A DNA stretch of 32,000 nt from Acaryochloris marina MBIC11017 (GTDB lineage: Bacteria > Cyanobacteriota > Cyanobacteriia > Thermosynechococcales > Thermosynechococcaceae). The DNA lies in the NCBI RefSeq assembly GCF_000018105.1, contig NC_009926.1, forward strand, positions 30,001 to 62,000, written 5' to 3'. Below the pieces are notes generated by a model. The model had not been told where the DNA came from, searched no databases, and worked only from the letters and a program-made list of their open reading frames with translations. Below, piece by piece: positions 3,363 through 23,744 of this stretch. The number at the start of each line of letters is the position of its first letter. Positions within the stretch are counted from its first letter, which is position 1. A program made the position numbers and the translations under genes.

Positions 3363-3374
3363 AATTGACCTCCT

Positions 3375-6931: not shown

Positions 6932-7144
6932 CTACCACAACCTATTGACCCCCTCAAATCCTTTCACCACAAGCCTTTTTGATGCCAGAGACCCCAAGCG
7001 CTCAACAACTTCAAGAGCCTCCAACAATGTAAGAGACTGCGCCTCAGTCTGGTCTTTGGTCATAGTGAGTTTCTGTTGGTTAAGGTCAAAATCTTTCACA
7101 AATGAGCCATCGTCATGCAGGACAAATCTTTTAGGGAAAGCCAT
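6932..7144 (-). CDS. Small hypothetical protein (70 aa), translationally coupled to rep
   Basis: Internal ATG of the 6932..7288 track ORF, preceded on the minus strand by AAGGAGATACTG. It reads MAFPKRFVLHDDGSFVKDFDL... and overlaps the rep stop region (7131-7144) by 14 nt. Confidence 0.45.
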   Translation of the reverse strand: MAFPKRFVLHDDGSFVKDFDLNQQKLTMTKDQTEAQSLTLLEALEVVERLGSLASKRLVVKGFEGVNRLW

Positions 7145-9212
7145 CAGTATCTCCTTTAAGATCCAAACAAACGCCAAACATTCGTTCCATTGCCCGCAGG
7201 GTAAACACGGCTGATAATTCTGTGTAAGGTTGCCACTGTTCCTCGGCCAACACCCAATACTCTCCGTCCCTCCAAGAGTAATCTGCAACTAACTTGCACT
7301 GCATCGCTAACTGATACCAATGGTCAAACTCCTCTCGTTCACTAAGTCGAGCTTCTCGTTCAATCGGCTGTTCACCATTAGTGATGAGTTGAAGGGGAAG
7401 CTGTTCCTGATTTTGCGGCCGCAATTCTGCGTTTGCTTCACTAAGCGCTTTTCGCTGTGACTTCCTCGCTTTCACTCGTTGCCGCCGACGCTGCTCATAC
7501 TCAAGTTCACGCTGTTGTTGTCGCTTGGCTTTAGAGATTTTCTGCTGCAGGCCCGGAGGTAGGGAGAGGTGCAGCTGATCCCAATTTTGGATTGGAATAA
7601 CCTTGGAGTTCCCCCCCAAACCCCCCCGATCTAGGTCTTCAGAATTCACAAGCGCCGCTTTCGCCGCCCTTTGGCCTTTGAGGGCCAGGGCGACGGCGGC
7701 TTGTATTCTCATCGTCATGATTACAAACCCTACATAAATATAGAGTTGTAAAAGATCCTTTAATAGATAAAGTTCCAGCTTTCGCTGGTTTAAAAAGTGA
7801 GTATTATTTGAACAGAGTTGTGTAATAGTTCCTTCCTGCAAGGGGTCTAGGGCTTTCTGAGGGGGTTCTGGGGGTAAATGATGGGGGTGCCAGAGTTCTA
7901 GGTTTGACTTGCGGTATAAGGTTTTCTGGCTAGTGTGAGCTAGTTTTGCAATCGCACTGGCACGAGCTGTGATACCAGGGGGAAGCTTGCTGACTCTTCT
8001 TAATTCAAAGACGGCTTTTTTGATCCGGTTCTGGGCGGCTTCACGCTTGGATTGGTGATAGCCAAAGTCGGCAGGAGCGACTTGTTTGTCGTTGTATTTG
8101 GCGTCTCGGGCAGGGGCTGAACCAGCGGGCCAGTAGTAGCGCATAGTCCAGGTTGCCACTTCATAACTACGGCGCTCGATTTCATGCTGGTGGCGGCAAT
8201 GTTCGTTAAAGCCTGGGGTGTTCTGAGCAGTTTGACAAACGTATTCTGCGATCTGCTCTGAACTATCCATTCCCAAAAATACGCGGGCTTCGCAGGCGAT
8301 GATCTTCAGCTTCTCGTTGGTTTGGCCGGGGCCGGTCCAGCCTTGGGATTTCTCTTCATGAATGCGCTCCTGCCAGGTGGCGAGGGAGGAAGCGTTACCG
8401 GATTTACGGACTTTGAAGTTTTGCTGCGCGTCTGCGATCGCATGGTGAAGACGACCCATGTCCTGGCCATCGGCACATAGCTCAAAACAATCTAGCCAGT
8501 CTTCCAGGAACCAGGGGAGAGGGTTTAGATCGGTGTCGAGTGGATGGAAGCCGCTACCCGGCTGCATAGGGAGACGGAATGCAGCAAAGAGACTGTAGCC
8601 CTTACCTTTGGGCACATACCGCTTGGGGTTGGGGTAGAGTTCGCATTGACCTCCACAAAATTTGACGCCTTCAGCTTCCAGGTTGAGTTTGATGCACACA
8701 CTCAACCAAAAACTACTGACGGATTCGGGCAGGGGGAGGTAGAGGTGTAAGCCGCCGCTATGGCTACTTTGACAAAGGAGTGAGCGGCAGATACCGATTT
8801 CTTCCAGGGCATGTCGGATCTTTGGAAGCCAATGTGGAGCGCTGGTTGGATGATAGCGAGAGTCCTTGTCTATATCGAGGACCAGCCAACGGGTCTGGGC
8901 ATTGGGCCTCACTCCGATCAGACAGTCTGGGTCTTGATGAAGTGACCACAACTCCACGGGGGAGAGAGGGAATTTCTTCACCGTTTCCCAGTCAACGGGA
9001 TTACCTTGTTCCGGGACTGACGCAAAGATCCAATCCCAGCCATTGGGGAAAAGTAAGGCCAATCTTTGACCCAATGGATCTGCTGGTAATGGGTCATGCT
9101 TAGGGCGTCTGGGATGCTGAAATACATAATCTGGGACATGGGAAGGCGAGCCATGTTGACGCTGAAGCATGTCTTGGAAATACTCCCAAATTTTAGATTG
9201 GGGTATTTTCAC
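7131..9212 (-). CDS. Plasmid replication protein with an N-terminal primase-polymerase (prim-pol) domain
   Basis: 693 aa. It has the DxD motif in WLVLDIDKDSRYH and the sGGLHLY motif in SSHSGGLHLYLPLP, typical of bifunctional prim-pol domains. No P-loop helicase motif is seen. There is a basic coiled region (KAKRQQQRELEYEQRRRQRVKARK). An iteron field lies immediately upstream. Confidence 0.75.
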   Translation of the reverse strand: MKIPQSKIWEYFQDMLQRQHGSPSHVPDYVFQHPRRPKHDPLPADPLGQRLALLFPNGWDWIFASVPEQGNPVDWETVKKFPLSPVELWSLHQDPDCLIGVRPNAQTRWLVLDIDKDSRYHPTSAPHWLPKIRHALEEIGICRSLLCQSSHSGGLHLYLPLPESVSSFWLSVCIKLNLEAEGVKFCGGQCELYPNPKRYVPKGKGYSLFAAFRLPMQPGSGFHPLDTDLNPLPWFLEDWLDCFELCADGQDMGRLHHAIADAQQNFKVRKSGNASSLATWQERIHEEKSQGWTGPGQTNEKLKIIACEARVFLGMDSSEQIAEYVCQTAQNTPGFNEHCRHQHEIERRSYEVATWTMRYYWPAGSAPARDAKYNDKQVAPADFGYHQSKREAAQNRIKKAVFELRRVSKLPPGITARASAIAKLAHTSQKTLYRKSNLELWHPHHLPPEPPQKALDPLQEGTITQLCSNNTHFLNQRKLELYLLKDLLQLYIYVGFVIMTMRIQAAVALALKGQRAAKAALVNSEDLDRGGLGGNSKVIPIQNWDQLHLSLPPGLQQKISKAKRQQQRELEYEQRRRQRVKARKSQRKALSEANAELRPQNQEQLPLQLITNGEQPIEREARLSEREEFDHWYQLAMQCKLVADYSWRDGEYWVLAEEQWQPYTELSAVFTLRAMERMFGVCLDLKGDTDGFP
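7611..7627 (-). repeat. C7-A3-C7 tract (G7TTTG7 on the coding strand) inside rep
   Basis: Read directly: cccccccaaaccccccc, encoding GGLGG. It fits the G3N1G3N3G3N1G3 quadruplex pattern on the minus strand and comprises two slippage-prone homopolymers. Confidence 0.9.
8434..8441. repeat. HIP1 octamer GCGATCGC (cyanobacterial highly iterated palindrome)
   Basis: Exact GCGATCGC. Further copies are at 18301-18308 and 23671-23678. Confidence 0.9.
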
Positions 9213-9314
9213 AGAATAATTTTTGTCTTGTTTACATTTGCATTTAAATTACTTTAAATAATTGGGTTGTCTTATAAGGCTACAAACCAGTCACAGAAAG
9301 GGATTTTACAAAAC

Positions 9315-9378
9315 TTAGTGCATACATACGGAGATTTTAGTGTAGGCATACGGATAACTTAGTGCATAGAAACGGAGA
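9315..9378 (+). repeat. Three 20-bp direct repeats (iterons) at 22-bp phasing, upstream of rep
   Basis: TTAGTGCATACATACGGAGA (9315), TTAGTGTAGGCATACGGATA (9337), TTAGTGCATAGAAACGGAGA (9359). Consensus is TTAGTGnnnnnAtACGGAgA. Confidence 0.85.
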
Positions 9379-9461
9379 ATATTGTCTCTTCCTTAAAGGG
9401 ACACCCAGCTTAGGTTAAGTGCCGATAAATGAAGTTGATTTTATTAAGACAAAAAAAATAT

Positions 9462-9481
9462 TAAGTGTAGGGATACGGATA
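9462..9481 (+). repeat. Isolated iteron copy
   Basis: TAAGTGTAGGGATACGGATA, followed by TTGAGACAAT. That sequence is the inverted partner of ATTGTCTCA at 9520-9528. Confidence 0.75.
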
Positions 9482-9497
9482 TTGAGACAATCTATTT

Positions 9498-9927
9498 TTA
9501 GTGCTAGGATACGGAGAAAATTGTCTCATCCTGTCTTACACCTTGCTCGGTACCCAATAATTTAGGTCTTGATACTAAGTGCTAGGATACGGAGAAATTT
9601 GTCTCATCCTGTCTTACATCTTGCTCGGTACCCAATAATTTAGGTCTTGATACTAAGTGCTAGGATACGGAGAAATTTGTCTCATCCTGTCTTACATCTT
9701 GCTCGGTACCCAATAATTTAGGTCTTGATACTAAGTGCTAGGATACGGAGAAATTTGTCTCATCCTGTCTTACACCTTGCTCGGTACCCAATAATTTAGG
9801 TCTTGATACTAAGTGCTAGGATACGGAGAAATTTGTCTCATCCTGTCTTACATCTTGTTCGGTATCCAATAATTTAGGTCTTGATACTAAGTGCTAGGAT
9901 ACGGAGAAATTTGTCTCATCCTGTCTT
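9498..9927 (+). repeat. 78-bp tandem direct repeat, ~5.5 near-identical copies, each carrying the iteron core AGTGCTAGGATACGGAGA
   Basis: The core starts at 9500, 9578, 9656, 9734, 9812 and 9890, an exact 78-bp period. The unit is AAGTGCTAGGATACGGAGAAATTTGTCTCATCCTGTCTTACA[C/T]CTTGCTCGGTACCCAATAATTTAGGTCTTGATACT. The last copy is truncated near 9927. Confidence 0.95.
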
Positions 9928-9943
9928 CCTCAAATAATGCACT

Positions 9944-12067
9944 TCAAAATACCAAGATACGCTTAAGCTTCTCAGCAATCTCCAGAGTAATTGGACGATC
10001 TCCTCTCTCCATCTTGCCAATATAATCAGAACTCACATCAATAAACCCTGCAAGCTGCTTCCGACTTAATCCCTTAACCTTTCTGGCTTTAAGTAAGCTA
10101 CTTGGTTCGATATCAACTGCCTGGGCACGGTCAATCACAAGAGCCATTTTCTTGGGTGAGCCAATTTTGGTTAAAAGCTCAGGGATAGGATTTGGTGGGC
10201 TTATTGTCAACTTTGCATCAAGCAATCGATCTATTAATTTAACCTTTCGCCAATTCTTGGGTTTCGGGGACTCACTATCAGGTTGCAGCCAGCTTGGGTA
10301 CGTTTCGGGATCAAACTGTAAAAGCCATCCTAATTTATTGAGCATTTTCAAGGATTTATCCCACCGTTTTCTCAAATCTCTGGCCTTGCCCTTTTGATTT
10401 CGTGCTGTTTCTATTTCCGAAAGTGGAATTACTTCCTCAAGGAGTTTCCCCACAGTATAGTCATAAGGATTCTCATTTCTAGCTCTAATTCGAGAATCAA
10501 GCGTGAGTTGGATGGCTAATCGTAAAGCCATTTCATTATGGTAAGGATCGATTTGTAAAATATCTTTAGCAAGGTAGCCAAATTGGTACAGAGCTTCTTG
10601 TGCCTTAAGACCAGCTCGGTTTAGAAAATTCATTGTCCATAAGCCTGGAGAAACGGTTATGTAAACTTCTTCTGGCTTTTCAATTTTTTTCGTCACAAAA
10701 TCAAACTGTCCAGTAGGCTCTATCAATACATCCCACATCCGACCAGTGGGAGTACTAGCATCGATTTTACTTTTGCCCCTACCTGCTATCCATACTGACC
10801 TTACCAATAAGCAAGAAAGAGCATAGGCTGTGCTAGCAACAGCAAGTCTCTTTTCTGGTAAAGCAGTATTATGGTTTTTATCCCATCCGAGAAGCTTAAT
10901 TATATCGGTCGCATTAAGGGTAAATGAGCTATTCCAGGGCTCCTCTTGTTCCATTGTTTTCGCAGCGAAGATGAGCTGAAGTTTGACAGTATCAAACCCA
11001 AAGATATCAATGATCTGTTCAGCAGCTTCCCAGGGTAAAAGGGCAATGTCTCCTGGGGAGGTAATGTAGTGTTCGATAAAGTTACCTGGATTAGATTTGC
11101 TACGATACTTAAATTTCGCATTCGAATTTTCATCTTGCTGCCATAGATCGGGGCGAAGCTGTGCCTTTATGCTGCTAGCAATAGGGATAGATGTAGGTAA
11201 AGCAGTTACAGCAGGTAGTTCTATTCTGGCTTTGTTTTTAGGTAGTGGCGAACGTCGAAGCCCTAATAAAGCATGCATATCTTCAAGAGAGCAGCTAGGT
11301 AGACTCAACTGCTCAATTAAAATTAGAGCAATTTCCCGACTATGGAAAGAAGCCCTTACTTTTATCTGATCACAAATAGGGCCAGTTTTATTAGTTTTGA
11401 GAAATTTGATAACTATTTGTTGTAGTTGTGATGCAGACATTTCTCGTAAAGCCTTACTTCCAAGTTCAGACTCTAGTTCCTGCAAAGCTAAATTCAATAA
11501 TTCTCTGCAAAAGGTATTTGAGATGGTCCCCTTAAATGACTCATGGCAGAAAAAGTCAGAAAGTGATTCATTCAAGTACTTTTTAACGGTTATTTCATCA
11601 ATATTAAATTGTAGTACTTGAGATTCACGAGATATATCAGTATTTATCTGAATGTGTGGAAGAAAGGTATCTAAGGCACTCTTACCTTTTTCTTTAATAA
11701 CTTCTTCAACCTTGAACTTATATACCTTGAGCAAATGCAAGTAAAGATGTTGAATTATTAATCTAGATAGATCAGTCCTTTCAAGCAGAAAGTCGATCAT
11801 CTGATCCAGAAAATCTAAAGAGATAACTTGGTCAATAGCAACATCAAGCGGTAAGGTAACGAAGAATATTTGATCTTCTGAGTTAACACTTGCTAAATGA
11901 TGAGATTCCGGCGAGATGTTTTCTCCTGACTTATCAGCAGCTAATATATCATCATGACAATCTAGATTCATAGTCAACTTAGAACGTGTAACCAGCTCAT
12001 CAGAGTTAAAGCCATTCACTCTAATGTCCACTTTTCGTGTTGATCGATGTCTATCAGAAGCAGACAC
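9944..12067 (-). CDS. Large (707 aa) protein with a C-terminal XRE-family HTH; remainder unassigned (possible initiator-like winged-helix region)
   Basis: The C-terminus KVKGLSRKQLAGFIDVSSDYIGKMERGDRPITLEIAEKLKRIL is a typical HTH_XRE. The gene is AT-rich, and its 3' end abuts the 78-bp repeat array. Confidence 0.7.
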   Translation of the reverse strand: MSASDRHRSTRKVDIRVNGFNSDELVTRSKLTMNLDCHDDILAADKSGENISPESHHLASVNSEDQIFFVTLPLDVAIDQVISLDFLDQMIDFLLERTDLSRLIIQHLYLHLLKVYKFKVEEVIKEKGKSALDTFLPHIQINTDISRESQVLQFNIDEITVKKYLNESLSDFFCHESFKGTISNTFCRELLNLALQELESELGSKALREMSASQLQQIVIKFLKTNKTGPICDQIKVRASFHSREIALILIEQLSLPSCSLEDMHALLGLRRSPLPKNKARIELPAVTALPTSIPIASSIKAQLRPDLWQQDENSNAKFKYRSKSNPGNFIEHYITSPGDIALLPWEAAEQIIDIFGFDTVKLQLIFAAKTMEQEEPWNSSFTLNATDIIKLLGWDKNHNTALPEKRLAVASTAYALSCLLVRSVWIAGRGKSKIDASTPTGRMWDVLIEPTGQFDFVTKKIEKPEEVYITVSPGLWTMNFLNRAGLKAQEALYQFGYLAKDILQIDPYHNEMALRLAIQLTLDSRIRARNENPYDYTVGKLLEEVIPLSEIETARNQKGKARDLRKRWDKSLKMLNKLGWLLQFDPETYPSWLQPDSESPKPKNWRKVKLIDRLLDAKLTISPPNPIPELLTKIGSPKKMALVIDRAQAVDIEPSSLLKARKVKGLSRKQLAGFIDVSSDYIGKMERGDRPITLEIAEKLKRILVF

Positions 12068-12129
12068 TAAAATTAACCCTCCTCAAGCGAAATATAAATA
12101 GCCAGATACAATAATCATTATTTTGAAGC

Positions 12130-12142
12130 ACACCTAAGGTGT
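12130..12142. promoter_or_regulatory. 13-bp palindrome ACACCTAAGGTGT upstream of the 707-aa gene (candidate operator)
   Basis: Perfect 6-bp arms around one central base, 63-75 nt upstream of the ATG at 12067. Confidence 0.35.
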
Positions 12143-12273
12143 TTGAAAAGGAAAGACTAATGATTTTAATTAAAAGTGATTTAAAATCAGTATTTTCCAT
12201 AAACAAAGACCTATTATTTCAAATGAATAGGAATGTGACCTTGAATTTGTAAGATTTATAGATTTCAATCGAT

Positions 12274-13341
12274 TCATAGTTTTTTTAATGGCTGAGAGAT
12301 TGCTGACCAGGCAGTCAGAGCATCAGTGCAACGCTGAGGGTCAGACTCAGCACAATAGCAGAGGCAATATAGACTCTCCATCAAAATAAACAAGGAAGGA
12401 TCTGGAAGGTTAAGCATAACGACAGTATCATCAGCCTCTGTTGTTGTAGCGAGGCAATTTTCAATTATTTCTCGTAGATTTCTAAGATCAATATCCTCGC
12501 CATAAGAAGAATAAAAAGACAATGCATTCTTTGTATTTTCTGGTAGAGATTGCGGCCAATACTCTTGTGTGTCCAGAAAGATCATAAACAAGCCAATCTC
12601 AGAAGGTAAGAGCTTCTGGAATTTTTTAGAAGATGAATCACCACAAAATAAATAATGAGATTTTCCCAGCCTCCATATATCGCCATTCACAACCTTCTTG
12701 GGTTCAACGGTAAGCTGCTTTAAGTCAAGTTCACTAACTTGCTTTCTTTTTCGTTGCCTTTTTGTAGTATCTTTTTCATCTTGAAAAGATTTACCACCTA
12801 TTCTAGAGGTATCAATTAATCGGTTGTCCATGCCCCTTCGAAGCTTAGCGGGGCTGTCATTGCTATTTAGCTGCAGTTCGTTTCGAATTTTTCCTACAAA
12901 TGTGTTACTAACGCCACATCTCTTAGAGATTGCATTATCACTCCATAAACTCCACTCATGATCACGTATTAGTCTTTCTACGGATCGACGTTTATCCGCA
13001 TTGGTACGCCTTAAACCATGTACAGCGTTAGCTCCAACAGCAAATAATACAGCATCCCTCTGTGTTCCTAGTCGAACCTCAGCAACTATTTCCTTCGTGC
13101 CAAGACTTTCTCTTGCACGCACTCTATGAAAACCGTCAGCTAGCCAATATTCTTTACCATCATAATAAACAGTAACAGGTGGAAATTTTGCACCTTGTTG
13201 CATATCATCGGCATATTCAGCTACAACTTCTTCGTATAACTGGGAGCGAGGTTGAGTACCTCCATCCATACGTATTTTAGCTATCTCAACAGACTGGACA
13301 TTCGATTCAGTAGATATGCTAGTGGTTTGTTTGGAAGGCAT
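12274..13341 (-). CDS. ParB/Srx-fold (ParB-like nuclease N-domain) protein with an HTH and a degenerate DNA-methyltransferase-like C-terminal tail
   Basis: KFPPVTVYYDGKEYWLADGFHRVRARESLG is ParB-N box-like, followed by SKRCGVSNTFVGKIR (HTH-like). In the C-terminus, GDIWRLGKSHYLFCGDSSSKKFQKLL...LFMIFLDTQEYW mirrors the N-terminus of ParB-methylase fusions, but the DPPY motif is replaced by DTQEY and the tail is too short. Confidence 0.75.
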   Translation of the reverse strand: MPSKQTTSISTESNVQSVEIAKIRMDGGTQPRSQLYEEVVAEYADDMQQGAKFPPVTVYYDGKEYWLADGFHRVRARESLGTKEIVAEVRLGTQRDAVLFAVGANAVHGLRRTNADKRRSVERLIRDHEWSLWSDNAISKRCGVSNTFVGKIRNELQLNSNDSPAKLRRGMDNRLIDTSRIGGKSFQDEKDTTKRQRKRKQVSELDLKQLTVEPKKVVNGDIWRLGKSHYLFCGDSSSKKFQKLLPSEIGLFMIFLDTQEYWPQSLPENTKNALSFYSSYGEDIDLRNLREIIENCLATTTEADDTVVMLNLPDPSLFILMESLYCLCYCAESDPQRCTDALTAWSAISQPLKKL

Positions 13342-13471
13342 TCAGAACTAGCAGTAGACAACAACATAAAGACATGAAAGCATCTAAACTCATAAGCAAC
13401 TAATAATTCAAGGAATTAAAAGCCTACTGTTAAGTTGTGTTAAGTATGACTTTTGTGCCTCAGTAACTTGA

Positions 13472-14029
13472 TTACATCCTTGAGGAGTTCCTCTTTTGCC
13501 CAATTTTGTGTGTATTGATGACTCTTCCATCTATCCCTCTTCGAGTTTTTGACTTCCAACCGTTGAAAGTGGGCGACAGTTGATGCCTGAGCTTTCCAAC
13601 GAAAGTATTGCTAACTCCACATTTCTTGGCAATTGCATTGTCACTCCATTGATTCCACTCAGAATCTTTTAATAGTCGCTCGACGACTCTTCGCTTGTCT
13701 TCGTTAGTACGTTGAAATCCATGAATTGTATTAGCTCCTGCTGAAAAAAGTATTGCATCACGACGAGAACCAAGCCAAACCTCTGCACAAATTATTGGTT
13801 GACCAATGCTCTCTTTAGCTCGAACACGGTGAAAACCATCAGCTAACCAATATTCAGCACCATCATAGAAAACAGTAACAGGGGGAAACTTAGCTCCCAG
13901 TTTCATGGCACCTGTATACTCCTGTACAACTGCCTGGTTGGTCTGCTTTCGAGGTTGAACCTCTTCGTCAAGGTTGATTTCCGATAAATCTAGATTAGTT
14001 ATAGAGCTATCAGACCTTATTAAGTACAT
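13472..14029 (-). CDS. ParB/Srx-fold protein, short paralog of 12274-13341
   Basis: 185 aa. KFPPVTVFYDGAEYWLADGFHRVRAKESIG...GANTIHGFQRTNEDKRRVVERLLKDSEWNQWSDNAIAKKCGVSNTFVGKLR is collinear with the neighbouring gene. Confidence 0.8.
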   Translation of the reverse strand: MYLIRSDSSITNLDLSEINLDEEVQPRKQTNQAVVQEYTGAMKLGAKFPPVTVFYDGAEYWLADGFHRVRAKESIGQPIICAEVWLGSRRDAILFSAGANTIHGFQRTNEDKRRVVERLLKDSEWNQWSDNAIAKKCGVSNTFVGKLRHQLSPTFNGWKSKTRRGIDGRVINTHKIGQKRNSSRM

Positions 14030-14399
14030 TTTCTTAGACTCCAGTCTAATATTTCAGTTTACATATTTTTTCCTACTAAAAGGAAAACAAAGCCAATAAT
14101 GATTGCTCATACTTAAGTTAATTTATCTAGAGCCATACACCAGAAGAACTAGTTTTAAGTGTCATACAAAGAATTAATATTTAACTCTAGTAAATGTATA
14201 AGCAAAAGACTAATTTATAAAACAATGAATAACTGAATTGATTACAGAATACATCTAGAAAACTACCCTTATGTCAAAAAAATTAAAACACCTTAAATCT
14301 TCCAGGATAATGTGTATGACCTCTTGTATTCTTTAAACTTCGGGGACCCCAAAGTTCACTATAGAGTTTTTTCTGATATATTCCTCCGATTTATATTAA

Positions 14400-16973
14400 A
14401 TGAAATTATCGTTTGGAGAAGTACCAAAGAAACGTACTAAGCGGATTCTGAGAGCTATACTTACATTTGCCAATGGGAACAAACAGGTTAATTCTTACCG
14501 CTACTGTTTGAGCAATATTCAGATAGACAGGAGTGGTCCCAAGCAAGTGACGATAAAGGCTACTCTTAAGCAATTGGCAGAGTTAGTAAGCTACTCAGAT
14601 AAGTTGCATGTGGAGAGTAGCCCTGATCCACTTACTCAATGGAGTTTGCAGGAAGCTTTAGAGCATCTAAGACTTACACTCGGGGTATTTTCTGATATCC
14701 GCCAGAAACGTCAAGGCTCAAAGTACTGGGTATTCCGACTTGACTTATGGTTTGTCATTGAAGACCAAGTAGGTAATTTAGCAGAATTCGATCGTAAATG
14801 GGAACGTAAAAAAAACTTAGTATCATCCAAAAAGACTTCTACTTCTCAACTAGAAAATCATATTCCCTTTCAAGTTCTTGTTGATATACAAAACTTTGTC
14901 GGTCGTGAAGCAGAGCTAAAAAGTCTTGAAAATTTCTTAGTTTTCAACAAATCAGGAATAGCAATTGTTGGTATCTACGGTATGGGAGGAGTTGGTAAAA
15001 GTACTCTTGCTAAGCACTTTGCCCATCAATATCGAAAATCATTTCCTGATGGGGTTCTGTTTGCCGATCTCCGTATTCAAGAGCCTTCCGCACTCTTAGA
15101 GAGTTTTGCTAGAGCCTATAGTTGTGATCTCAACTCAACAATGAATATTTTGGATAAGGCAGAGCGTGTTCGTACAATCTTGTCTCAGAAGCGTTCTCTG
15201 TTGATACTTGATAATGCCAATGATTCAGAAATTCTTAATTATCTATTGCCAACATTTGGACAATGTTCAGTAATAGTTACTGCGCGTGACAAAGATATTG
15301 CTCCCCTCCAAGGGTTTCAAGAGTTAATTCTGGAACCATTCAGTAAGTCCGAGTCAATGGAGTTGCTAACTAAGTTAGTAGGTAGGGATAGAATTAAATC
15401 AGAAAACAATGAAGCAGTAAAAATCACCGAGATGTGTGGAAATCTGCCATTAGCGATTAATATATCTGGAAGTTTAATAAAATTTTCTTGCTGTAGTTTA
15501 AGTGATTATAGATTTAGTTTTGAAAATGAGCAACAAAAGCTAGATATTTTTGAGTGGCGTTCTCGCTCATTAAGATCTTCGTTTAATATCACATGGGATT
15601 TATTGGGTGAGACATTAAAGAGACTATTATCAACAACTTCAATTTTTGGAGGTTCTAGTATTGACATTGATGCACTATCAGTAATGTTAGATAAGAAACC
15701 GATTAAATTGCAATTGGAGATGGGAGGCTTAATCGCGGTATCCTTAGTTTATACTAATAAATCAAAACACTATAAGTTGCACCCACTAGTTAAAGAATTT
15801 GCAACTGAGAAGCTATTTGAAAGAGAATCAAATGAAGTAAATACTTTACATCTATGCCTGGCTAGATATTATCTAAGTTCTATTAAATCCGGTAAACTAA
15901 ACTATGATCATATCAACGATAATTATGGAAATATTATTGAAATAGTTTATTGGACATTTAAGAATTGCTACTTCAAGGAAGTTGTAGAGTTTGGTAATAT
16001 CATTGGAGACTTCCTTCTGTTTAAAGGGTATTGGAATGATGGTAATAACATACTAAGGAACACAATCTTTGCTTGCCAGCAGTTAGGGTACGCTCAAACT
16101 GAGTTCGAAATTCGCTTAAAGCTGAGTGAACTTGCTAGGGAACAGGCTGATTATGATCAAGCTCAGGAACAATACGAAGCTTGTAAGACTTTTTTTGAAG
16201 AGACGGATCAAAAATCGCAATTGGCAATTGTATTTCGTGAATTAGGCGAGCTTACACGAGTCCGGCGCAATTATTTACAAGCTCGCAAATTACATCAGAA
16301 AAGCCTCTTATTAAATATCGAACTGGACAATAAGAAAGGGGAAGCACAAAGCCTCCATGACTTAGGACTAATTGAACGTATATTTGGTGATTATAATCGA
16401 GCTATACAGCTTTTTGAACGTAGTTTAAAAATCCGTGAATCTCTTGGTGATTTATTAGGCATATCATATAATTATTTGGAACTTGGGATTATTGCTCGTC
16501 TAAAAAAGGATAAAAAGGCTATAGAGTTTCTAAGAAGTAGTTGTTTCGAGTTTGAAAGATTTGGAGATAAGCGTGGTCTAGCATATGTATTTCGTGAACT
16601 TGGAGAATTAGCTGTTGATGAAATGGATTATGTTGAAGCAGATAAGTTTCATAAGAAAAGCCTTCAATTGAGACAAGAACTTGGAGATCAACGGGGTAAA
16701 GCTATAAGCCTTTATAGAATAGGACGGCTCAATCAGCTTCAGAAAAATTATGAATTATCAAAGCAATACTTTTTAGATAGTATTGCTATTGCTAAAAAAC
16801 TAGACGATAAGCTACATAAAGCCTTTAACCTTGTTCGATTGGGTGAGCTTGCCAACCTTTCAGGGCAAAAGTCTTCAGCAATAGCTAATTGGAGACAAAG
16901 TCTAGAACTGTTTAATGAGATGCATGTTGCAGATCCTGAAGCAATTGAAGTTAAAGAGCTATTAATGAGTTAA
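14400..16973 (+). CDS. STAND NTPase: unassigned N-terminal domain (~170 aa) + NB-ARC + C-terminal TPR array
   Basis: P-loop GIYGMGGVGKSTLA, Walker B LLILDNANDSE, and GNLPLAI (the GxP/GLPL motif of NB-ARC). More than 6 TPR-like units are present (e.g. FRELGELTRVRRNYLQARKLHQKSLLLNIELDNKKGEAQSLHDLG). Confidence 0.85.
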   Translation: MKLSFGEVPKKRTKRILRAILTFANGNKQVNSYRYCLSNIQIDRSGPKQVTIKATLKQLAELVSYSDKLHVESSPDPLTQWSLQEALEHLRLTLGVFSDIRQKRQGSKYWVFRLDLWFVIEDQVGNLAEFDRKWERKKNLVSSKKTSTSQLENHIPFQVLVDIQNFVGREAELKSLENFLVFNKSGIAIVGIYGMGGVGKSTLAKHFAHQYRKSFPDGVLFADLRIQEPSALLESFARAYSCDLNSTMNILDKAERVRTILSQKRSLLILDNANDSEILNYLLPTFGQCSVIVTARDKDIAPLQGFQELILEPFSKSESMELLTKLVGRDRIKSENNEAVKITEMCGNLPLAINISGSLIKFSCCSLSDYRFSFENEQQKLDIFEWRSRSLRSSFNITWDLLGETLKRLLSTTSIFGGSSIDIDALSVMLDKKPIKLQLEMGGLIAVSLVYTNKSKHYKLHPLVKEFATEKLFERESNEVNTLHLCLARYYLSSIKSGKLNYDHINDNYGNIIEIVYWTFKNCYFKEVVEFGNIIGDFLLFKGYWNDGNNILRNTIFACQQLGYAQTEFEIRLKLSELAREQADYDQAQEQYEACKTFFEETDQKSQLAIVFRELGELTRVRRNYLQARKLHQKSLLLNIELDNKKGEAQSLHDLGLIERIFGDYNRAIQLFERSLKIRESLGDLLGISYNYLELGIIARLKKDKKAIEFLRSSCFEFERFGDKRGLAYVFRELGELAVDEMDYVEADKFHKKSLQLRQELGDQRGKAISLYRIGRLNQLQKNYELSKQYFLDSIAIAKKLDDKLHKAFNLVRLGELANLSGQKSSAIANWRQSLELFNEMHVADPEAIEVKELLMS

Positions 16974-17080
16974 TCTAGATTTCAAAACAATCTTATTTTT
17001 CGAAGAATTAGAAAATCATTAAATAAAGGATACAATAATATTTTATCCAGAAGTAGGTATATTATTTCTAATATAGATTA

Positions 17081-17809
17081 TTATTTTTTAGCTGCTACAA
17101 GTATTCGATTCTGAGTGGTTATGATTCCTCTATCAGTCATATATGTTTCTACTATTTTTTCTAGAACATGACTGTCTTCTATCCGATCAAAACCTCTTAT
17201 TGTAGGAGTTTGCTCTAATAGTAGAATAAGACCTTCAAAGGAGTAGTACGTTTTCCAAAACCCATTCTTTGTTGAGACTTCTGTAAATAAATGAGAAAAC
17301 TCCTCTCTAAATTCAATCTCTCGTTCACCTTCATCATAATCACAAAATTGCCCTCGCAAACCTTTACTATCTCGACCGAACAAAGCTTTCAAGTTCCATT
17401 TATCCCTATCTCCAATTTTTTCAATAATTGTATGACCGCCTGGCTTAAGTACTCTGTGAACTTCACTTGTATTGTGAGGAGCAACCATTGCAGTAACAAC
17501 ATCAAACACGTGATCTTCAAAAGGAAGATCTTCTGCTGATCCACTAACAATAGAAATATTATCCAAATTTGCGAGCTTAATATTCTCTTCAGCCTTGAAG
17601 CGCATTCTTTCGTTCGGCTCGATCCCTATTATCTCTTGATAGTTAGTAATTGAAGCTAACTGAATTAACTTTGTTGCAGTCCCACAACCAATATCCAAGA
17701 GTCTATGCTGAGTTTTCACTACTTTTCTAATTTCATAAATCAAATCCCATGGACGATTTTCATTAATACCTCTTAATATATCCATTTCGTATGATTCAGT
17801 GTAAGGCAT
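17081..17809 (-). CDS. Class I SAM-dependent methyltransferase (Methyltransf_11/25-like, small-molecule type)
   Basis: Motif I LLDIGCGTATKL, post-I IIGIEPN, and VLKPGGHTII. There is no DPPY/NPPY DNA-methylase motif. Confidence 0.8.
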   Translation of the reverse strand: MPYTESYEMDILRGINENRPWDLIYEIRKVVKTQHRLLDIGCGTATKLIQLASITNYQEIIGIEPNERMRFKAEENIKLANLDNISIVSGSAEDLPFEDHVFDVVTAMVAPHNTSEVHRVLKPGGHTIIEKIGDRDKWNLKALFGRDSKGLRGQFCDYDEGEREIEFREEFSHLFTEVSTKNGFWKTYYSFEGLILLLEQTPTIRGFDRIEDSHVLEKIVETYMTDRGIITTQNRILVAAKK

Positions 17810-17863
17810 AAGTATTATTAATTTGGTAAAGTGAATTCTGCAATGAAATTGGGTCTAGTACTA

Positions 17864-17914
17864 TATACGAGTAGACTAATTATCTTGTATTAAGTAAATA
17901 ATGCTACTCGTATA
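17864..17914. repeat. 11-bp perfect inverted repeat TATACGAGTAG / CTACTCGTATA with a 29-nt spacer
   Basis: Read directly. It lies 55-105 nt upstream of the methyltransferase start in an AT-rich spacer. Confidence 0.8.
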
Positions 17915-18257
17915 CAAGACACTAGTAATTTGAATCGCTTAAATACACTCTTGTCATCGACATATCAAATTTCAATAGAATCATAAAAATAATATATATC
18001 TAGTAAGCAATTGACTCTAACTAATGATAAAAAATAAAATCAGTCTCAGAAAAGCCATGTATGTCAGGCTCGAGTTAAGTTTTTATATTTGAATGCAATT
18101 GCTTACTATATTCTTATTAGGATTATTTTTTAATGAATAACTTATTTTGTTTATATTAATATGGGATGCCTATAGCTAAATCTTAACAAAGCCTTTTACT
18201 ATCAACAATTGGTTTTCTCTTATTACTCTAACATAGGAATTTTCTGCAATATTATTC

Positions 18258-18374
18258 TTAATGTCTTTCCAAAAAAATTACCATCTCAGCAACAAAACAA
18301 GCGATCGCACGTTTCTCCTGGGTATATCGCAGAGATTTCTCTAAGAGGATTCCTTGTATAGCGAAGTGATTCAT
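18258..18374 (-). pseudogene. ssb: Truncated ssb-like gene (first ~28 codons homologous to 23424-23744, then divergent and stopped)
   Basis: MNHFAIQGILLEKSLRYTQEKRAIACFV compares with MNTCAFQGILLEKSLRYTQERRAIAEFV. DNA similarity, including HIP1 GCGATCGCACG, ends near 18290, where AT-rich sequence begins. Confidence 0.7.
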
Positions 18375-18460
18375 AATTTCTGATTTTAAGGCTAGATTAA
18401 AGGCCCAGTAACGATTCGTGGAAAAAACTTTTACTTTCCCCAAAACCCAATTCTCTACAC

Positions 18461-18476
18461 TAGAATGGCCGCAAGT
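18461..18476 (+). promoter_or_regulatory. Conserved -10-like box plus leader TAGAATGGCCGCAAGT (cassette copy A)
   Basis: The same 16-mer with R/R variation recurs at 23832 and 29483, each 20-23 nt upstream of an ATG preceded by a GAGG/GGAG Shine-Dalgarno. Confidence 0.6.
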
Positions 18477-18496
18477 CCGATCCCAGGGAGGTTCTC

Positions 18497-19573
18497 ATGC
18501 CCTCTGCATCTATCGATAAGCTGAACCAGCTTAAAAGGCAGCTTCAGGATTGTATTAACCCCACTGCTGCCAAGCTACTCAAGAGTACGATTGCAAAGCT
18601 TGAAGCCCAGCTCAACTTAGGCCAGGACCAGATCGAGGTATCTAAGATAGACCAGATAAAGACAACTAACACGAATTCTTCCAAGGTAGCTCAACGGAAA
18701 GCTGCACACAAGAAATCAGAGAGGAAATCTAGGCAGAAGGCATCTCAAAAACAAAGAACAACGTTGAAAGCCCCTTCACTCAACAAAGTAGAGACAAAAC
18801 CATCAGTAATCTCTCAGAACAAGAAGCTCCCAATTCCAGCCCAGGAAAAGCCGCATGTTAAGACTGTAGACACTCCTAACAGTAAGAATTCAAATTCAAA
18901 AAATCAAAAACAAGCAAAGACAACATCAAAGTCAAAATCAGGTGAACTTTCCGAGAAACCTCCACTGCTCCCTGGAAATGGCACTCATCGGGCTTGGTGC
19001 CGTATTCCCGGAATTATTCGAGTACGAGAGAAGGAGTTTGAAGACGGGAGAACAAAGTCTCTGTATTTTGTGGAAGTTGATGGACAACCCATCAAACTCT
19101 TCCTATCGAAGAAGAGCTTTAAGAAAGTCAAGTCAGTTTTAGACAAACCAGTCATAGTGTTTGGTTATCCCAATATCATGAATGGTCAGATTACATCTTT
19201 GCAGTTAACAGGTACCTCGCAACGGGCATCAGCAAAGACAGAGAACTGGGTATTGATCGGAGTATGGAGAGCAGATAAGCAAAGGGTTTTGATACAGCGG
19301 GATCAGGAGCGCGACCCAGAGATTCATATCCGCCAGCATTCCCCGCTCGTGAGAGAGGACTGCCTGGAGAAGCTCAAGGATGGAAAGCTCTATGAGTTCA
19401 CCTGCCATAGAGATGGCGTTACCATCAAGGTTGTGGCTGTTGGAGAACGTTCAACGCAGAAGAGTAACGCTACTGAATCAACTGACCATGAAATCACTGA
19501 TCCAGAAATCAAAGATCAGGAAATCATTGACCAAGTCTTTTCTAAATTGGAGTCTTCCACTCTCCAGGTATGA
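18497..19573 (+). CDS. OrfX: uncharacterised protein (coiled-coil N-terminus, basic low-complexity linker, conserved ~190-aa C-domain)
   Basis: 358 aa, a paralog of 23870-24691. Shared blocks are MPSA[ST]IDKLNQLK, LLPGNGTHRAWCRIPGIIRV, W[VM][LM]IGVW, QR[VL]L[IV]QRDQ, QHSPLV[RK]E.CLEKL..GKLY. I recognise no known family. Confidence 0.75.
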   Translation: MPSASIDKLNQLKRQLQDCINPTAAKLLKSTIAKLEAQLNLGQDQIEVSKIDQIKTTNTNSSKVAQRKAAHKKSERKSRQKASQKQRTTLKAPSLNKVETKPSVISQNKKLPIPAQEKPHVKTVDTPNSKNSNSKNQKQAKTTSKSKSGELSEKPPLLPGNGTHRAWCRIPGIIRVREKEFEDGRTKSLYFVEVDGQPIKLFLSKKSFKKVKSVLDKPVIVFGYPNIMNGQITSLQLTGTSQRASAKTENWVLIGVWRADKQRVLIQRDQERDPEIHIRQHSPLVREDCLEKLKDGKLYEFTCHRDGVTIKVVAVGERSTQKSNATESTDHEITDPEIKDQEIIDQVFSKLESSTLQV

Positions 19574-23423: not shown

Positions 23424-23744
23424 TTACTGATTAATCTGGACCGTGGAGTCGGTTGATCTTATCAACGACAAGGCTAGCCTGCTGCTCCACATATTCCTCG
23501 TTGCCGTCTTATGAGTGACTTTGTTTATCCTCAGTTGACCTTGCAAAATGAGTTGGTCGCCAGCTTGTAATGCATTGTGTGCTTTCTCCCCATTTTCTCC
23601 CCAATAGATGGCCTTGAGATTTTCCCTGGGGTCTTCTTCCCTCAGAGGGTTAATTTCAACGACGAATTCCGCGATCGCACGTCTTTCCTGGGTATATCGC
23701 AGGGATTTCTCCAGGAGTATTCCTTGGAAAGCACAAGTGTTCAT
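23424..23744 (-). CDS. ssb: SSB-like OB-fold protein (no acidic C-terminal tip)
   Basis: MNTCAFQGILLEKSLRYTQERRAIAEFVVEI...LKAIYWGENGEKAHNALQAGDQLILQGQLRINKV follows the cyanobacterial SSB N-terminal OB pattern. The C-terminus is atypical. Confidence 0.65.
   Translation of the reverse strand: MNTCAFQGILLEKSLRYTQERRAIAEFVVEINPLREEDPRENLKAIYWGENGEKAHNALQAGDQLILQGQLRINKVTHKTATRNMWSSRLALSLIRSTDSTVQINQ

What the first reader, a model, noticed from the sequence alone, without database searches (positions are those of the whole stretch)
9944..18290. AT-rich ~8.3-kb island between the iteron field and a truncated ssb-like gene
Composition drops visibly. Hand counts of single 60-nt lines give 35/60 GC at 1501-1560 versus 18/60 at 12601-12660. 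The island carries five genes: a 707-aa XRE-HTH protein, two ParB/Srx-fold paralogs, an NB-ARC/TPR STAND NTPase and a SAM methyltransferase. Long AT-rich spacers lie at 14030-14399 and 17810-18257. Its right edge coincides with the point (~18290) where homology between the ssb-like remnant and the intact copy at 23424-23744 ends, so the island seems to have replaced the 3' part of that gene. The content is reminiscent of two things. STAND NTPases are typical of defence islands. ParB-like nuclease-domain genes, methyltransferases and ssb are typical of plasmid leading-region or anti-defence clusters. I see no integrase or transposase.
Basis: partly seen in the sequence, partly recalled or inferred. 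Interest (0 to 1): 0.65.

Follow-up and report, generated by a model that had tools for sequence, protein, structure and literature searches.

The report
AT-rich maintenance sector of cyanobacterial megaplasmid
The AT-rich stretch is real, but it is not one inserted island: it is the old, origin-adjacent maintenance sector of an Acaryochloris megaplasmid, and it holds a conserved, uncharacterised pair of an NLR-like ATPase and a methyltransferase.

Summary
GC falls from 0.51 to 0.36 and recovers to 0.43. The five genes are as described, and a 36-codon ssb remnant ends at about 18280.

The "single inserted island" reading does not hold.
- The low-GC tract starts at about 9177 and includes the iterons.
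- It has three units of different evolutionary range.
  1. The 707-aa HTH protein belongs to a family found on 47 cyanobacterial plasmids. In the six looked at it lies beside the replication gene.
  2. The two ParB-like genes are tandem paralogs. They flank the replication gene in six related Acaryochloris plasmids.
  3. The EAD4–NB-ARC–TPR STAND ATPase and a 242-aa class-I SAM methyltransferase form a convergent pair. The pair is kept in at least nine loci at 50–99% identity, is under purifying selection and is AT-rich everywhere. A conserved 160-bp upstream leader with a palindrome travels with it.
- No integrase, flanking repeats or known defence-system match was found.

The ssb breakpoint is a true rearrangement junction. 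It is shared by plasmids only 79% identical, so it is old.

The pair's function is unknown. I lean towards an NLR-like conflict sensor. A STAND transcription regulator is a close rival.

The parts
7131..9212 (-). 693-aa putative replication protein. It is context only and marks the GC-rich left edge.
   Evidence: Homologs lie next to the ParB pair in pMB01, pMB02, pMB03, pREC3 and the S15 plasmids. It is 53% identical to the gene beside the STAND pair in L009 and 33% identical to the gene downstream of the HTH homolog in L. boryana p1. pMB02 and the S15 plasmid are typed rep_cluster_1522. It has no Pfam hit. The motifs 'LVLDID' and 'SGGLHLY' look primase-like; that is my reading and was not tested.
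9213..9943 (.). Iteron field, which is the true start of the AT-rich tract
   Evidence: There are five to six copies of a 78-bp repeat at 9422-10005 and three 22-bp repeats at 9312-9385 that share the core ..TAGTGC....ACGGAGA. GC is 0.367. The composition change point is at 9177.
9944..12067 (-). 707-aa protein with a C-terminal XRE helix-turn-helix; a partner of the replication module
   Evidence: HTH_3 matches residues 660-701. Residues about 288-704 are conserved on 47 cyanobacterial plasmids. In five contexts the homolog lies directly upstream of, and co-directional with, a replication or candidate replication gene: CyRepA1 in Geminocystis, PriCT-2 in Nostoc, a Rep693 homolog in L. boryana p1, and a hypothetical gene plus DnaB in Oscillatoria. 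In L. boryana p2 it is adjacent to CyRepA1 but divergent.
12274..13341 (-). 355-aa ParB-like protein: ParB-N domain, HTH and an alpha/beta C-terminal domain
   Evidence: ParB_N, Noc and Spo0J give sequence hits. In the AlphaFold model (pLDDT 78) the N-domain plus HTH match Noc, ParB and KorB at E 4e-9 to 2e-5. It carries a 'DGFHRVRA' motif. More than 100 close relatives are almost all from Acaryochloris plasmids. dN/dS is 0.10-0.15.
13472..14029 (-). 185-aa short ParB-like paralog (ParB-N domain and HTH only)
   Evidence: It is 58% identical to residues 9-184 of the 355-aa protein. A profile of its orthologs hits Spo0J and ParB. It is present beside the long paralog in pMB03, pREC3, pMB02, S15, L010, L012 and L013.
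14238..14399 (+). Conserved non-coding block upstream of the STAND gene, a putative promoter plus leader. It holds a palindrome/hairpin AACTTCGGGG-N-CCCCAAAGTT at 14336-14356.
   Evidence: It is 69-75% identical to L002, L010, L012 and L013, against 52-56% at four-fold sites of the adjacent gene and 30-40% for the neighbouring ParB spacer. The stem is kept through changes on both sides in L007 and L009 and through G-U pairs in L012. It is unique in the window, with 0 matches expected by chance. The window's own copy has one C-A mismatch. There is no Rfam match.
14400..16973 (+). 857-aa STAND NTPase: EAD4 (6-136), NB-ARC (170-361) and TPR
   Evidence: Pfam gives EAD4 3.5e-27, NB-ARC 2e-21 and TPR_12 1e-24. 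The motifs GMGGVGKST, LLILDNA, GNLPLAI and LHPLVKEF are intact in the sequence. Full-length orthologs are 50-99% identical. dN/dS is 0.11-0.18.
17081..17809 (-). 242-aa class I SAM-dependent methyltransferase, the convergent partner of the STAND gene
   Evidence: Methyltransf_25/11/31 hits at 1e-15 to 1e-16. It lies next to the STAND ortholog in every locus examined. Mean column identity is 79%, including the C-terminal half. dN/dS is 0.06-0.19.
17810..18280 (.). AT-rich spacer between the methyltransferase gene and the ssb remnant
   Evidence: GC is 0.27. The last 100 bp or so before the breakpoint align with pREC2 and pMB03 but not with pREC3 or the intact ssb.
18267..18374 (-). 5' remnant of a duplicated ssb gene; homology ends at about 18280
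   Evidence: tblastn gives 69% identity over 36 codons. Window 18301-18600 aligns with 23671-23973 at 71%. The five-way alignment shows that pREC2 and pMB03 share the truncation. pREC3 keeps the full length, with a stop after codon 35.
23424..23744 (-). Intact 106-aa ssb paralog, used as the reference for the remnant
   Evidence: Pfam SSB 9.4e-08.

Best explanation
The AT-rich tract (about 9180-18300) is the origin-proximal maintenance and accessory sector of an Acaryochloris marina megaplasmid. The window's own ParB protein is on record on a contig of 374,161 bp, which I recall as the size of pREB1 of strain MBIC11017. The tract is not one horizontally inserted island. It is made of three units.

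1. Iterons plus the 707-aa HTH protein. These belong to the replication module. The likely role is a DNA-binding control or accessory factor of the neighbouring replication gene (inferred).

2. A tandem-duplicated ParB/Noc/KorB-like pair. The likely role is plasmid-specific centromere binding or KorB-like silencing, possibly as a long/short hetero-pair (inferred). No ParA is nearby.

3. An old two-gene cassette: an EAD4-NB-ARC-TPR STAND NTPase and a convergent class I SAM methyltransferase, with its own conserved promoter/leader carrying a palindrome. It is AT-rich wherever it is found. The DNA to its right truncated one copy of a duplicated ssb<->hyp unit, long before pREB1/pREC2 and pMB03 diverged.

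How the cassette most likely works (inferred). The TPR arm binds a trigger protein or ligand. Nucleotide exchange then lets the NB-ARC module oligomerise and cluster the N-terminal EAD4 domains, which pass on the signal. I put about 0.35 on an NLR-like conflict or defence sensor that recruits an EAD4-tagged effector encoded elsewhere, or acts through the methyltransferase. I put about 0.30 on a STAND-type transcription regulator whose EAD4 is a winged-helix domain bound to the palindrome.
For: Identity and collinearity:
- The window is collinear with pREC2 over 7053-21007 at 91-98% and with pREC3 over 18303-24972 at 98%.
- The 374,161-bp contig figure comes.

The HTH protein belongs with replication genes.

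The ParB pair:
- The two genes are paralogs.
- The N-domain has a ParB/Noc/KorB fold.
- The pair lies beside the replication gene in six related plasmids.

The STAND-methyltransferase pair:
- It is kept in the window, pREC2, pMB03, L007/L008, L009, L010, L011, L012 and L013.
- GC of the pair is 0.33-0.36 against 0.39-0.485 for the flanks in the five loci measured.
- dN/dS is 0.06-0.19 with dS above 1.
- The upstream leader and palindrome are conserved, with compensatory changes.

The ssb junction is shared with pMB03, while a full-length copy survives in pREC3.

No mobility genes were found and no repeats flank the tract.

For the sensor reading:
- The EAD4 match is strong, and Kaur et al. predict it to be an effector-recruiting adaptor of conflict systems (PMC7159879, PMC8195603).
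- EAD4 relatives are N-terminal domains of NB-ARC or NACHT proteins with TPR or WD40 arms.
- Sister plasmids carry another NB-ARC gene, a Ser/Thr kinase-TPR gene and a CHAT protease gene in the same slot.
- The STAND gene is decayed in pMB03 and frameshifted in L009.
Against: - No function was tested for any gene.
- There is no second EAD4 in the window, nor in the methyltransferase or the short ParB. This goes against a local EAD-effector pairing.
- The STAND has no effector domain of its own.
- PADLOC finds no known system.
- The TPR arm is no more variable than the rest of the protein.
- No ParA or parS was found, so a partition role for the ParB pair is only inferred.
- Several genes to the right are equally AT-rich, so composition alone does not define a unit.
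- The 98% identity with pREC3 to the right of 18303 shows recent exchange between plasmids. The order of events at the junction is therefore not fully resolved.
Confidence: 0.6

Rival explanations
1. The STAND protein is a signal-transducing transcription regulator of the AfsR or HTH-NB-ARC-TPR type, not an immune sensor. Its EAD4 domain would be a winged-helix DNA-binding module that binds the conserved palindrome in its own leader. On sensing a ligand it would switch its own expression and that of neighbouring genes such as the methyltransferase or the ParB pair. The methyltransferase would be an ordinary small-molecule or sugar methylase.
For: - The closest non-orthologous NB-ARC-TPR relatives carry XRE-HTH or BTAD/SARP DNA-binding N-termini.
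- The best NCBIfam matches are HaaT and AfsR.
- In the EAD4 model (pLDDT 81) the top Foldseek hits are mostly winged-helix DNA binders: PadR/LmrR, replication terminator protein and ORC/Cdc6 winged-helix domains.
- The palindrome is conserved with symmetric changes and travels with the cassette even where the ParB pair is absent, as in L007 and L009.
- The sensor arm is not hypervariable.
- The conserved partner is an enzyme. A relative of it in a Pacearchaeota MAG sits in a glycosyltransferase/DegT cluster.
Against: - The Foldseek hits are weak (best E 0.04, TM 0.3-0.5; none at E <= 0.001).
- EAD4 is fused to many different STAND types with WD40 or TPR arms, which is typical of predicted conflict systems.
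- The methyltransferase is convergent, not in an operon, and its own upstream region is not conserved.
- The palindrome occurs only once in the window.
Confidence: 0.3
2. One reading: one horizontally acquired 8.3-kb defence or anti-defence island inserted between the iterons and ssb, replacing the 3' part of ssb.
For: - The composition steps are sharp.
- The ssb copy is truncated exactly at the right edge.
- pREC3 has other genes in place of the STAND-methyltransferase pair and a full-length ssb copy.
- STAND NTPases are common in defence islands.
Against: - The left edge is not a junction. The HTH and ParB genes are syntenic with the replication gene in other plasmids.
- Subsets of the five genes occur separately: HTH plus ParB in pMB01, and ParB plus STAND plus methyltransferase in pMB03.
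- No integrase, transposase or flanking repeats were found.
- The junction is shared at 79% DNA identity and dS is above 1.
- There is no PADLOC system.
Confidence: 0.07
3. A conjugative leading-region cluster (ParB-like nuclease, methyltransferase, ssb) that is expressed early in the recipient to counter host defences.
For: - pREC2 and pREC3 are typed as conjugative, with MOBF and MPF_T.
- ParB-like, methyltransferase and ssb genes are all present.
- The C-terminal domain of the 355-aa ParB begins with 'GDIWRLGKSHYLFCGDSS'. This resembles the start of ParB-fused DNA methylases, and there is a weak PADLOC MTase_II hit at E 0.0045.
Against: - In pREC2 the MobF relaxase lies 25-30 kb away on the other side of the replication gene and T4SS.
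- The genes point in mixed directions.
- The methyltransferase is of the UbiE/YcgJ-like class I type, not a DNA methylase family.
- The ParB C-terminal domain has no Pfam match even at E <= 10, and the catalytic DPPY motif is absent.
- The ssb next to the tract is a dead remnant.
Confidence: 0.03

Closest known systems
EAD-bearing STAND NTPases of predicted prokaryotic conflict systems (Kaur, Burroughs, Iyer, Aravind 2020/2021; Pfam PF19959 EAD4)
   Same: The protein has an N-terminal EAD4, a central NB-ARC (AP-ATPase clade) NTPase and C-terminal TPR repeats. It is from a cyanobacterium and the domain is at the N-terminus, as in the family.
   Different: No second EAD4 copy on an effector was found in the neighbourhood. 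Instead there is a conserved convergent SAM methyltransferase and a fixed place beside a plasmid ParB or replication module. The main texts of the two papers do not mention either feature.
AfsR/SARP-type and XRE-HTH-NB-ARC-TPR signal-transduction ATPases (transcription regulators)
   Same: The NB-ARC-TPR core is the closest in sequence outside the orthologs: 25-29% identity over 80% of the length, E 1e-80 to 1e-60. An output domain sits at the N-terminus.
   Different: The N-terminal domain is EAD4, not BTAD/SARP or XRE-HTH. DNA binding by EAD4 is suggested only by weak fold matches.
Avs and other experimentally shown anti-phage STAND systems (as modelled in PADLOC-DB 2.0)
   Same: Both have the tripartite STAND layout with a repeat sensor.
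   Different: There is no match to the Avs, bNACHT or other STAND models of PADLOC, only to generic TPR profiles. There is also no fused nuclease, protease or TIR effector.
ParB/Noc/KorB CTP-switch DNA-binding proteins (ParABS partition; KorB of RK2)
   Same: The ParB-N fold plus HTH is supported by sequence and by the model. The GxxRxxA-type motif 'DGFHRVRA' is present. The genes lie next to the replication origin.
   Different: No ParA gene lies within 32 kb and no parS was identified. The genes are a tandem long/short paralog pair. The long one carries an extra alpha/beta C-terminal domain of unknown family in place of the usual dimerisation domain.
Cyanobacterial plasmid replication modules (CyRepA1 / PriCT-2 type; Sakamaki et al., PMC10899382)
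   Same: Homologs of the 707-aa HTH protein lie directly upstream of CyRepA1 or PriCT-2 replication genes in Geminocystis and Nostoc plasmids.
   Different: Here the downstream gene is an unrelated 693-aa protein with no BLAST similarity to the Nostoc PriCT-2 protein. A 78-bp iteron array lies between the two genes. The paper's main text does not mention HTH, helix-turn-helix or ParB.

Membership tests
Horizontally inserted genomic island | Composition differs from the flanks, with sharp boundaries | tested here: met
   GC is 0.511 | 0.364 | 0.427 with change points at 9177 and 18437. The left boundary is 770 bp left of the one proposed.
Horizontally inserted genomic island | Integrase, transposase or other mobility gene | tested here: not met
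   None of the ORFs submitted to Pfam matched such a family.
Horizontally inserted genomic island | Flanking direct repeats or target-site duplication | tested here: not met
   The repeat finder on 9100-18500 gives no repeat pair that brackets the tract.
Horizontally inserted genomic island | Related replicons lack the whole tract and have both junctions empty | tested here: not met
   Only the right junction behaves this way (pREC3). The HTH and ParB genes are syntenic with the replication gene in other plasmids.
STAND NTPase, NB-ARC/AP-ATPase clade | Walker A, Walker B, GLPL-like and MHD-like motifs, followed by a repeat sensor | tested here: met
   NB-ARC 2e-21 and TPR_12 1e-24. GMGGVGKST, LLILDNA, GNLPLAI and LHPLVKEF can be read in the sequence.
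EAD-coupled conflict system (Kaur et al.) | EAD domain at a terminus of the core NTPase | tested here: met
   EAD4 matches residues 6-136 at E 3.5e-27.
EAD-coupled conflict system (Kaur et al.) | A second copy of the same EAD fused to an effector, in the same operon or genome | tested here: inconclusive
   None was found in the 32-kb window or in the methyltransferase or short ParB profiles. The rest of the genome could not be searched. On the plasmids in the database, the EAD4 hits fall under NB-ARC, NACHT or WD40 genes, or under genes annotated hypothetical or regulatory; no effector fusion was seen.
Known anti-phage defence systems (PADLOC-DB 2.0) | HMM match to the system's signature proteins | tested here: not met
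   The STAND matches only generic TPR models. The methyltransferase matches mad2 only over the SAM-binding core (residues 34-131). No other mad gene match was found among the eight ORFs scanned.
ParABS partition system | ParB with the N-terminal CTP-binding fold and an HTH | tested here: met
   Sequence hits to Spo0J, ParB and Noc. The model matches Noc, ParB and KorB at E 4e-9 to 2e-5. CTP binding itself was not tested.
ParABS partition system | Adjacent ParA ATPase and parS sites | tested here: not met
   No ParA-type hit in any ORF of the window that was scanned. No repeated palindromes typical of parS were found. A ParA elsewhere on the plasmid is not excluded.
Conjugative leading-region anti-defence cluster | Directly downstream of oriT or the relaxase, genes co-oriented, with an intact ssb, ardA or psiB | tested here: not met
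   In pREC2, MobF lies 25-30 kb away beyond the T4SS. Gene orientation is mixed. The adjacent ssb is a remnant. oriT itself was not mapped.
DNA methyltransferase (restriction-modification or anti-restriction) | N6/N4 or C5 DNA methylase domain with its catalytic motif | tested here: not met
   The 242-aa enzyme matches the Methyltransf_25/11, UbiE and YcgJ types. The C-terminal domain of the 355-aa ParB has no Pfam hit at E <= 10 and lacks DPPY.
AfsR/HTH-type STAND transcription regulator | Recognised DNA-binding domain at the N-terminus | tested here: inconclusive
   Pfam finds no HTH, BTAD or Trans_reg_C there. The EAD4 model resembles winged-helix proteins only weakly, with best E 0.04.

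The most novel reading that the evidence does not exclude
EAD4-type STAND NTPases may be a previously unrecognised accessory of cyanobacterial plasmid replication and partition modules. Here that would take the form of a self-contained cassette: sensor ATPase, SAM methyltransferase and a palindromic leader. Possible roles are monitoring plasmid status, or sensing incoming rival plasmids or phages, with the signal passed on through a winged-helix-like EAD4 domain. The cassette would then be a new kind of plasmid maintenance, exclusion or immunity device rather than a generic defence gene.
Probability: 0.2. Interest if true: 0.7.

Novelty: new variant of a known kind. Interest (0 to 1): 0.45.

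Why it matters
Acaryochloris carries up to nine megaplasmids that coexist and recombine, and how they are kept apart and maintained is unknown. This analysis sets out the origin-proximal layout shared by the Acaryochloris plasmids compared here: HTH protein, iterons, replication gene, a long/short ParB pair and a variable slot.

It also singles out one old cassette, an EAD4-STAND gene plus a methyltransferase gene with a conserved leader. The cassette has no assigned function, matches no system in PADLOC-DB, and can be tested directly.

If the link between EAD4-STAND proteins and plasmid replication or partition modules is general, it would connect NLR-like sensors with plasmid biology. If it is not, the result is still a useful caution. 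A sharp GC drop next to a truncated gene looked like a fresh island, but here it is old, selectively maintained plasmid backbone.

Tried and rejected
- Second EAD4 copy. A phmmer search of the EAD4 domain against all six-frame ORFs of at least 30 aa in the window found none. hhalign of the EAD4 profile against the methyltransferase, short-ParB and pMB02 NB-ARC N-terminal profiles gave probabilities below 1%.
- EAD4 profile in the word-indexed protein search. Only 9 short hits came back, which was uninformative. The exhaustive representative search was used instead.
- Rfam scan of 9000-19000 at E <= 0.1 found nothing.
- The promoter and terminator consensus scan was no better than shuffles: 32 promoter-like sites against 29.5 expected.
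- RNAalifold on the leader block picked a different long-range pairing because MAFFT misaligned the 3' arm, so it was no help. The hairpin was checked sequence by sequence instead. It cannot tell an RNA hairpin from a DNA palindrome: the G-U cases favour the plus strand, while the window's own mismatch favours the minus strand.
Its fold was therefore not compared.
- The idea that the ParB355 C-terminal domain is a decayed N6/N4 DNA methylase rests on a motif resemblance and one weak PADLOC hit. Pfam at E <= 10 gives nothing, and the whole-model Foldseek hits are dominated by the N-domain. It stays unproven.
- BLASTP of the 693-aa protein against the Nostoc PriCT-2 replication protein shows no significant similarity.
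- The region upstream of the methyltransferase gene shows no conserved block across loci.
- Methyltransferase relatives outside cyanobacteria (43-54% identity, in AT-rich MAGs) have no STAND neighbour. They did not clarify the pairing.

Full report
**1. Where the window comes from**

The window matches only Acaryochloris plasmids.
- It is collinear with pREC2 of A. marina MBIC10699 over 7053-21007, at 91% left of the record start and 98% right of it.
- It is collinear with pREC3 over 18303-24972 at 98%.
- The window's own ParB-like protein is on record on a contig of 374,161 bp. From memory, that is the size of pREB1 of the type strain MBIC11017.
- To the left of the finding lie a VirB4/DUF87-like ATPase, a sigma-70 factor and a 693-aa protein. 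That protein is conserved next to the ParB genes in all related plasmids. Two of those plasmids are typed rep_cluster_1522.
- In pREC2 the T4SS genes and the MobF relaxase continue on that same side.

**2. The observation**

- The two hand counts are exact.
- A three-segment likelihood split gives GC 0.511 | 0.364 | 0.427, with change points at 9177 and 18437.
- The right step is abrupt and coincides with the ssb breakpoint.
- The left step falls at the 5' end of the 693-aa gene. The iteron field therefore belongs to the AT-rich tract. It consists of 78-bp repeats (five to six copies) and 22-bp repeats (three copies).
- The five genes have GC3 of 0.25-0.34. A few genes further right are equally low.
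- Gene identities are confirmed.
- The ssb remnant is 36 codons long. Its similarity to the intact copy ends near codon 31, at about 18280.

**3. Is it one island?**

No. Comparison with related replicons splits it into units.
- pMB01 has replication gene - HTH - ParB - short ORF, then IS elements.
- pMB03 has replication gene - ParB - short ParB <-> fragmented STAND - methyltransferase, with no HTH gene.
- pREC3 has replication gene - ParB - short ParB, then three unrelated genes (a hypothetical, DUF296, a nitrilase).
- pMB02 and an S15 plasmid have replication gene - ParB - short ParB <-> a different NB-ARC gene. After it come a Ser/Thr-kinase-TPR gene, a short TPR-type gene and, further on, a CHAT protease gene.

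No integrase, transposase or bracketing repeat was found.

**4. The HTH protein**

- Its C-terminal 420 residues are conserved on 47 cyanobacterial plasmids, from Nostoc, Calothrix, Tolypothrix, Leptolyngbya, Oscillatoria, Geminocystis and others.
- I opened six contexts. In five, the gene lies immediately upstream of, and co-directional with, a replication or candidate replication gene. These are CyRepA1 in Geminocystis, a PriCT-2 protein in two Nostoc plasmids, and a hypothetical gene followed by DnaB in Oscillatoria. In L. boryana p1 it is a 33%-identical homolog of the window's 693-aa protein.
- In the sixth, L. boryana p2, it lies beside CyRepA1 but in divergent orientation.
- In the window the order is the same, HTH -> iterons -> 693-aa gene. 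The gene therefore belongs to the replicon, not to cargo.

**5. The ParB pair**

- The short protein is 58% identical to residues 9-184 of the long one.
- Both have the ParB-N fold with a 'DGFHRVRA' motif and an HTH.
- The AlphaFold model of the long one (pLDDT 78) matches Noc, ParB and KorB structures at E 4e-9 to 2e-5.
- Its extra C-terminal alpha/beta domain has no family match. A resemblance of its first motif to ParB-fused DNA methylases is unproven.
- More than a hundred close relatives were listed, and almost all named ones are from Acaryochloris.
- No ParA gene lies in the 32 kb.

**6. The STAND-methyltransferase cassette**

Full-length orthologs of the STAND (50-99% identity) were found in eight further contexts, and the 242-aa methyltransferase lies convergent to it in each.

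| Loci | What lies upstream of the STAND gene |
|---|---|
| L010, L012, L013 | the ParB pair, as in the window |
| L007, L008 | a 125-aa HTH-like gene |
| L009 | a 124-aa HTH-like gene, two genes from a 53%-identical homolog of the 693-aa protein |
| L011 | an M23 peptidase gene |

- In the five loci measured, the cassette has GC 0.33-0.36 against 0.39-0.485 for its surroundings.
- All four genes of the block are under purifying selection (dN/dS 0.06-0.19), with dS above 1.
- The low GC is therefore a long-standing property, not an un-ameliorated recent import.
- The NTPase motifs are intact in the window. The gene is broken in pMB03 and frameshifted in L009.

**7. A conserved non-coding element**

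- The 160 bp or so upstream of the STAND start (14238-14399) are 69-75% identical across loci. Four-fold sites of the gene are only 52-56% identical there, and the neighbouring spacer 30-40%.
- The block contains a 10-bp-stem palindrome at 14336-14356.
- The stem is kept through double changes in L007 and L009 and through G-U pairs elsewhere. It folds far better than shuffles in six of eight sequences.
- The window's own copy has one mismatch.
- The element occurs once in the window and matches no Rfam family.
- It travels with the cassette even where the ParB pair is missing.
- It may be an operator or a 5'-leader hairpin. The data do not decide between them.

**8. What the STAND does**

EAD4 is defined in the literature as a predicted adaptor that recruits effectors by homotypic contact (PMC7159879, PMC8195603).
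- In an exhaustive profile search it is almost always N-terminal. It is fused to NB-ARC (22 of 58 sampled) or NACHT (10 of 58), with TPR or WD40 arms.
- No second EAD4 was found here.

Other evidence points towards a regulator.
- The nearest NB-ARC-TPR relatives carry XRE-HTH or SARP DNA-binding N-termini.
- The EAD4 model (pLDDT 81) resembles winged-helix proteins, though only weakly, with best E 0.04.
- The TPR arm is not hypervariable.

I therefore keep two mechanisms open: conflict sensor at about 0.35 and transcription regulator at about 0.30. PADLOC recognises no known system.

The methyltransferase is a UbiE/YcgJ-like class I enzyme with a strongly conserved C-terminal half. Relatives at 43-54% identity occur in AT-rich MAGs without a STAND neighbour, one of them in a glycosyltransferase cluster.

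**9. The ssb junction**

- Window 18301-18600 is a 71%-identical copy of the divergent ssb<->hyp unit at 23671-23973.
- pREC3 keeps the full-length first copy, interrupted by a stop after codon 35.
- The window, pREC2 and pMB03 share the same truncation and the same AT-rich sequence to its left.
- The junction therefore predates the divergence of these plasmids, which are 79% identical in DNA.
- The 98% identity with pREC3 to the right of 18303 shows more recent exchange between co-resident plasmids.

**10. A lead**

EAD4-STAND genes on other cyanobacterial plasmids also sit beside replication or partition genes.
- In L. boryana p2 the gene is next to CyRepA1 and an HTH707-like gene.
- In a 37-kb Tolypothrix plasmid it is next to ParA.
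- In pMB06 it is next to CyRepA1 and a sigma factor, and the gene is decayed.
- This was not seen in pAQ7, pREC1, the Gloeothece plasmid or Nostoc N6 pNPM2.

Four of eight lineages is suggestive but anecdotal.

**Verdict**

The tract is old plasmid backbone plus an old, uncharacterised STAND-methyltransferase cassette. That makes it a new variant of a known kind, of moderate interest.

Noticed in passing
window 9312-10005: The iteron field holds five to six tandem 78-bp repeats (9422-10005) and three 22-bp repeats (9312-9385) that share a core ..TAGTGC....ACGGAGA. The last 78-bp copy runs into the 3' end of the HTH gene.
   Followed up: partly
window 14238-14399 (palindrome 14336-14356): This non-coding block upstream of the STAND gene is more conserved than synonymous sites. 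Its palindrome/hairpin shows compensatory changes in distant loci. The window's own copy has one mismatch and folds weakly.
   Followed up: yes
window 7131-9212 (-): The 693-aa putative replication protein has no Pfam or NCBIfam hit. It does contain 'WLVLDID' and 'SGGLHLY', which look like primase-polymerase (AEP) motifs I and II. This is my reading and was not tested.
   Followed up: no
window 18497-20043 and 29521-30440; 18301-18600 and 23671-23973: The right half of the window contains internal duplications. There are two dsRBD-domain genes (19570-20043 and 29961-30440) and two copies of the divergent ssb<->hyp unit. These fit frequent recombination among co-resident plasmids.
   Followed up: partly
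L005 16301-20323; L006 15350-23230: In pMB02 and an S15 plasmid the slot after the short ParB holds an unrelated NB-ARC gene without EAD4. A Ser/Thr-kinase-TPR gene and a CHAT protease gene follow. Two different STAND lineages therefore occupy the same position.
   Followed up: partly
L026, L028, L030 (other cyanobacterial plasmids): EAD4-STAND genes lie next to CyRepA1 plus an HTH707-like gene (L. boryana p2), next to ParA (Tolypothrix 37-kb plasmid), and next to CyRepA1 plus a sigma factor (pMB06, gene decayed). This makes four of the eight plasmid lineages checked.
   Followed up: partly
L020, L022, L023: The closest methyltransferase relatives outside cyanobacteria (43-54% identity) are in very AT-rich MAGs with GC 0.28-0.30 (Pacearchaeota, Gracilibacteria, a gammaproteobacterium). 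None has a STAND neighbour. The Pacearchaeota copy follows a GT4 glycosyltransferase gene and split DegT-type aminotransferase ORFs.
   Followed up: partly
window 12274-13341 (-), residues 214-355: The long ParB paralog has an extra alpha/beta C-terminal domain. It starts with 'GDIWRLGKSHYLFCGDSS', which resembles the start of ParB-fused DNA methylases, but the catalytic DPPY motif is missing and there is no family match.
   Followed up: partly
window 216-6065 (-): The GC-rich left part carries a 1048-aa VirB4/DUF87-like ATPase and a sigma-70 factor gene between the T4SS genes and the replication gene. A sigma factor gene recurs near the replication gene in other Acaryochloris plasmids (pMB01, pMB03, pMB06, an S15 plasmid) and near the cassette in L007.
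   Followed up: no
L004 7756-8141: The ssb copy of pREC3 next to the 358-aa gene is full length but has a stop after codon 35. No CDS is listed there in the PLSDB table. It is an intermediate stage of decay relative to the truncated copy in the window.
   Followed up: yes
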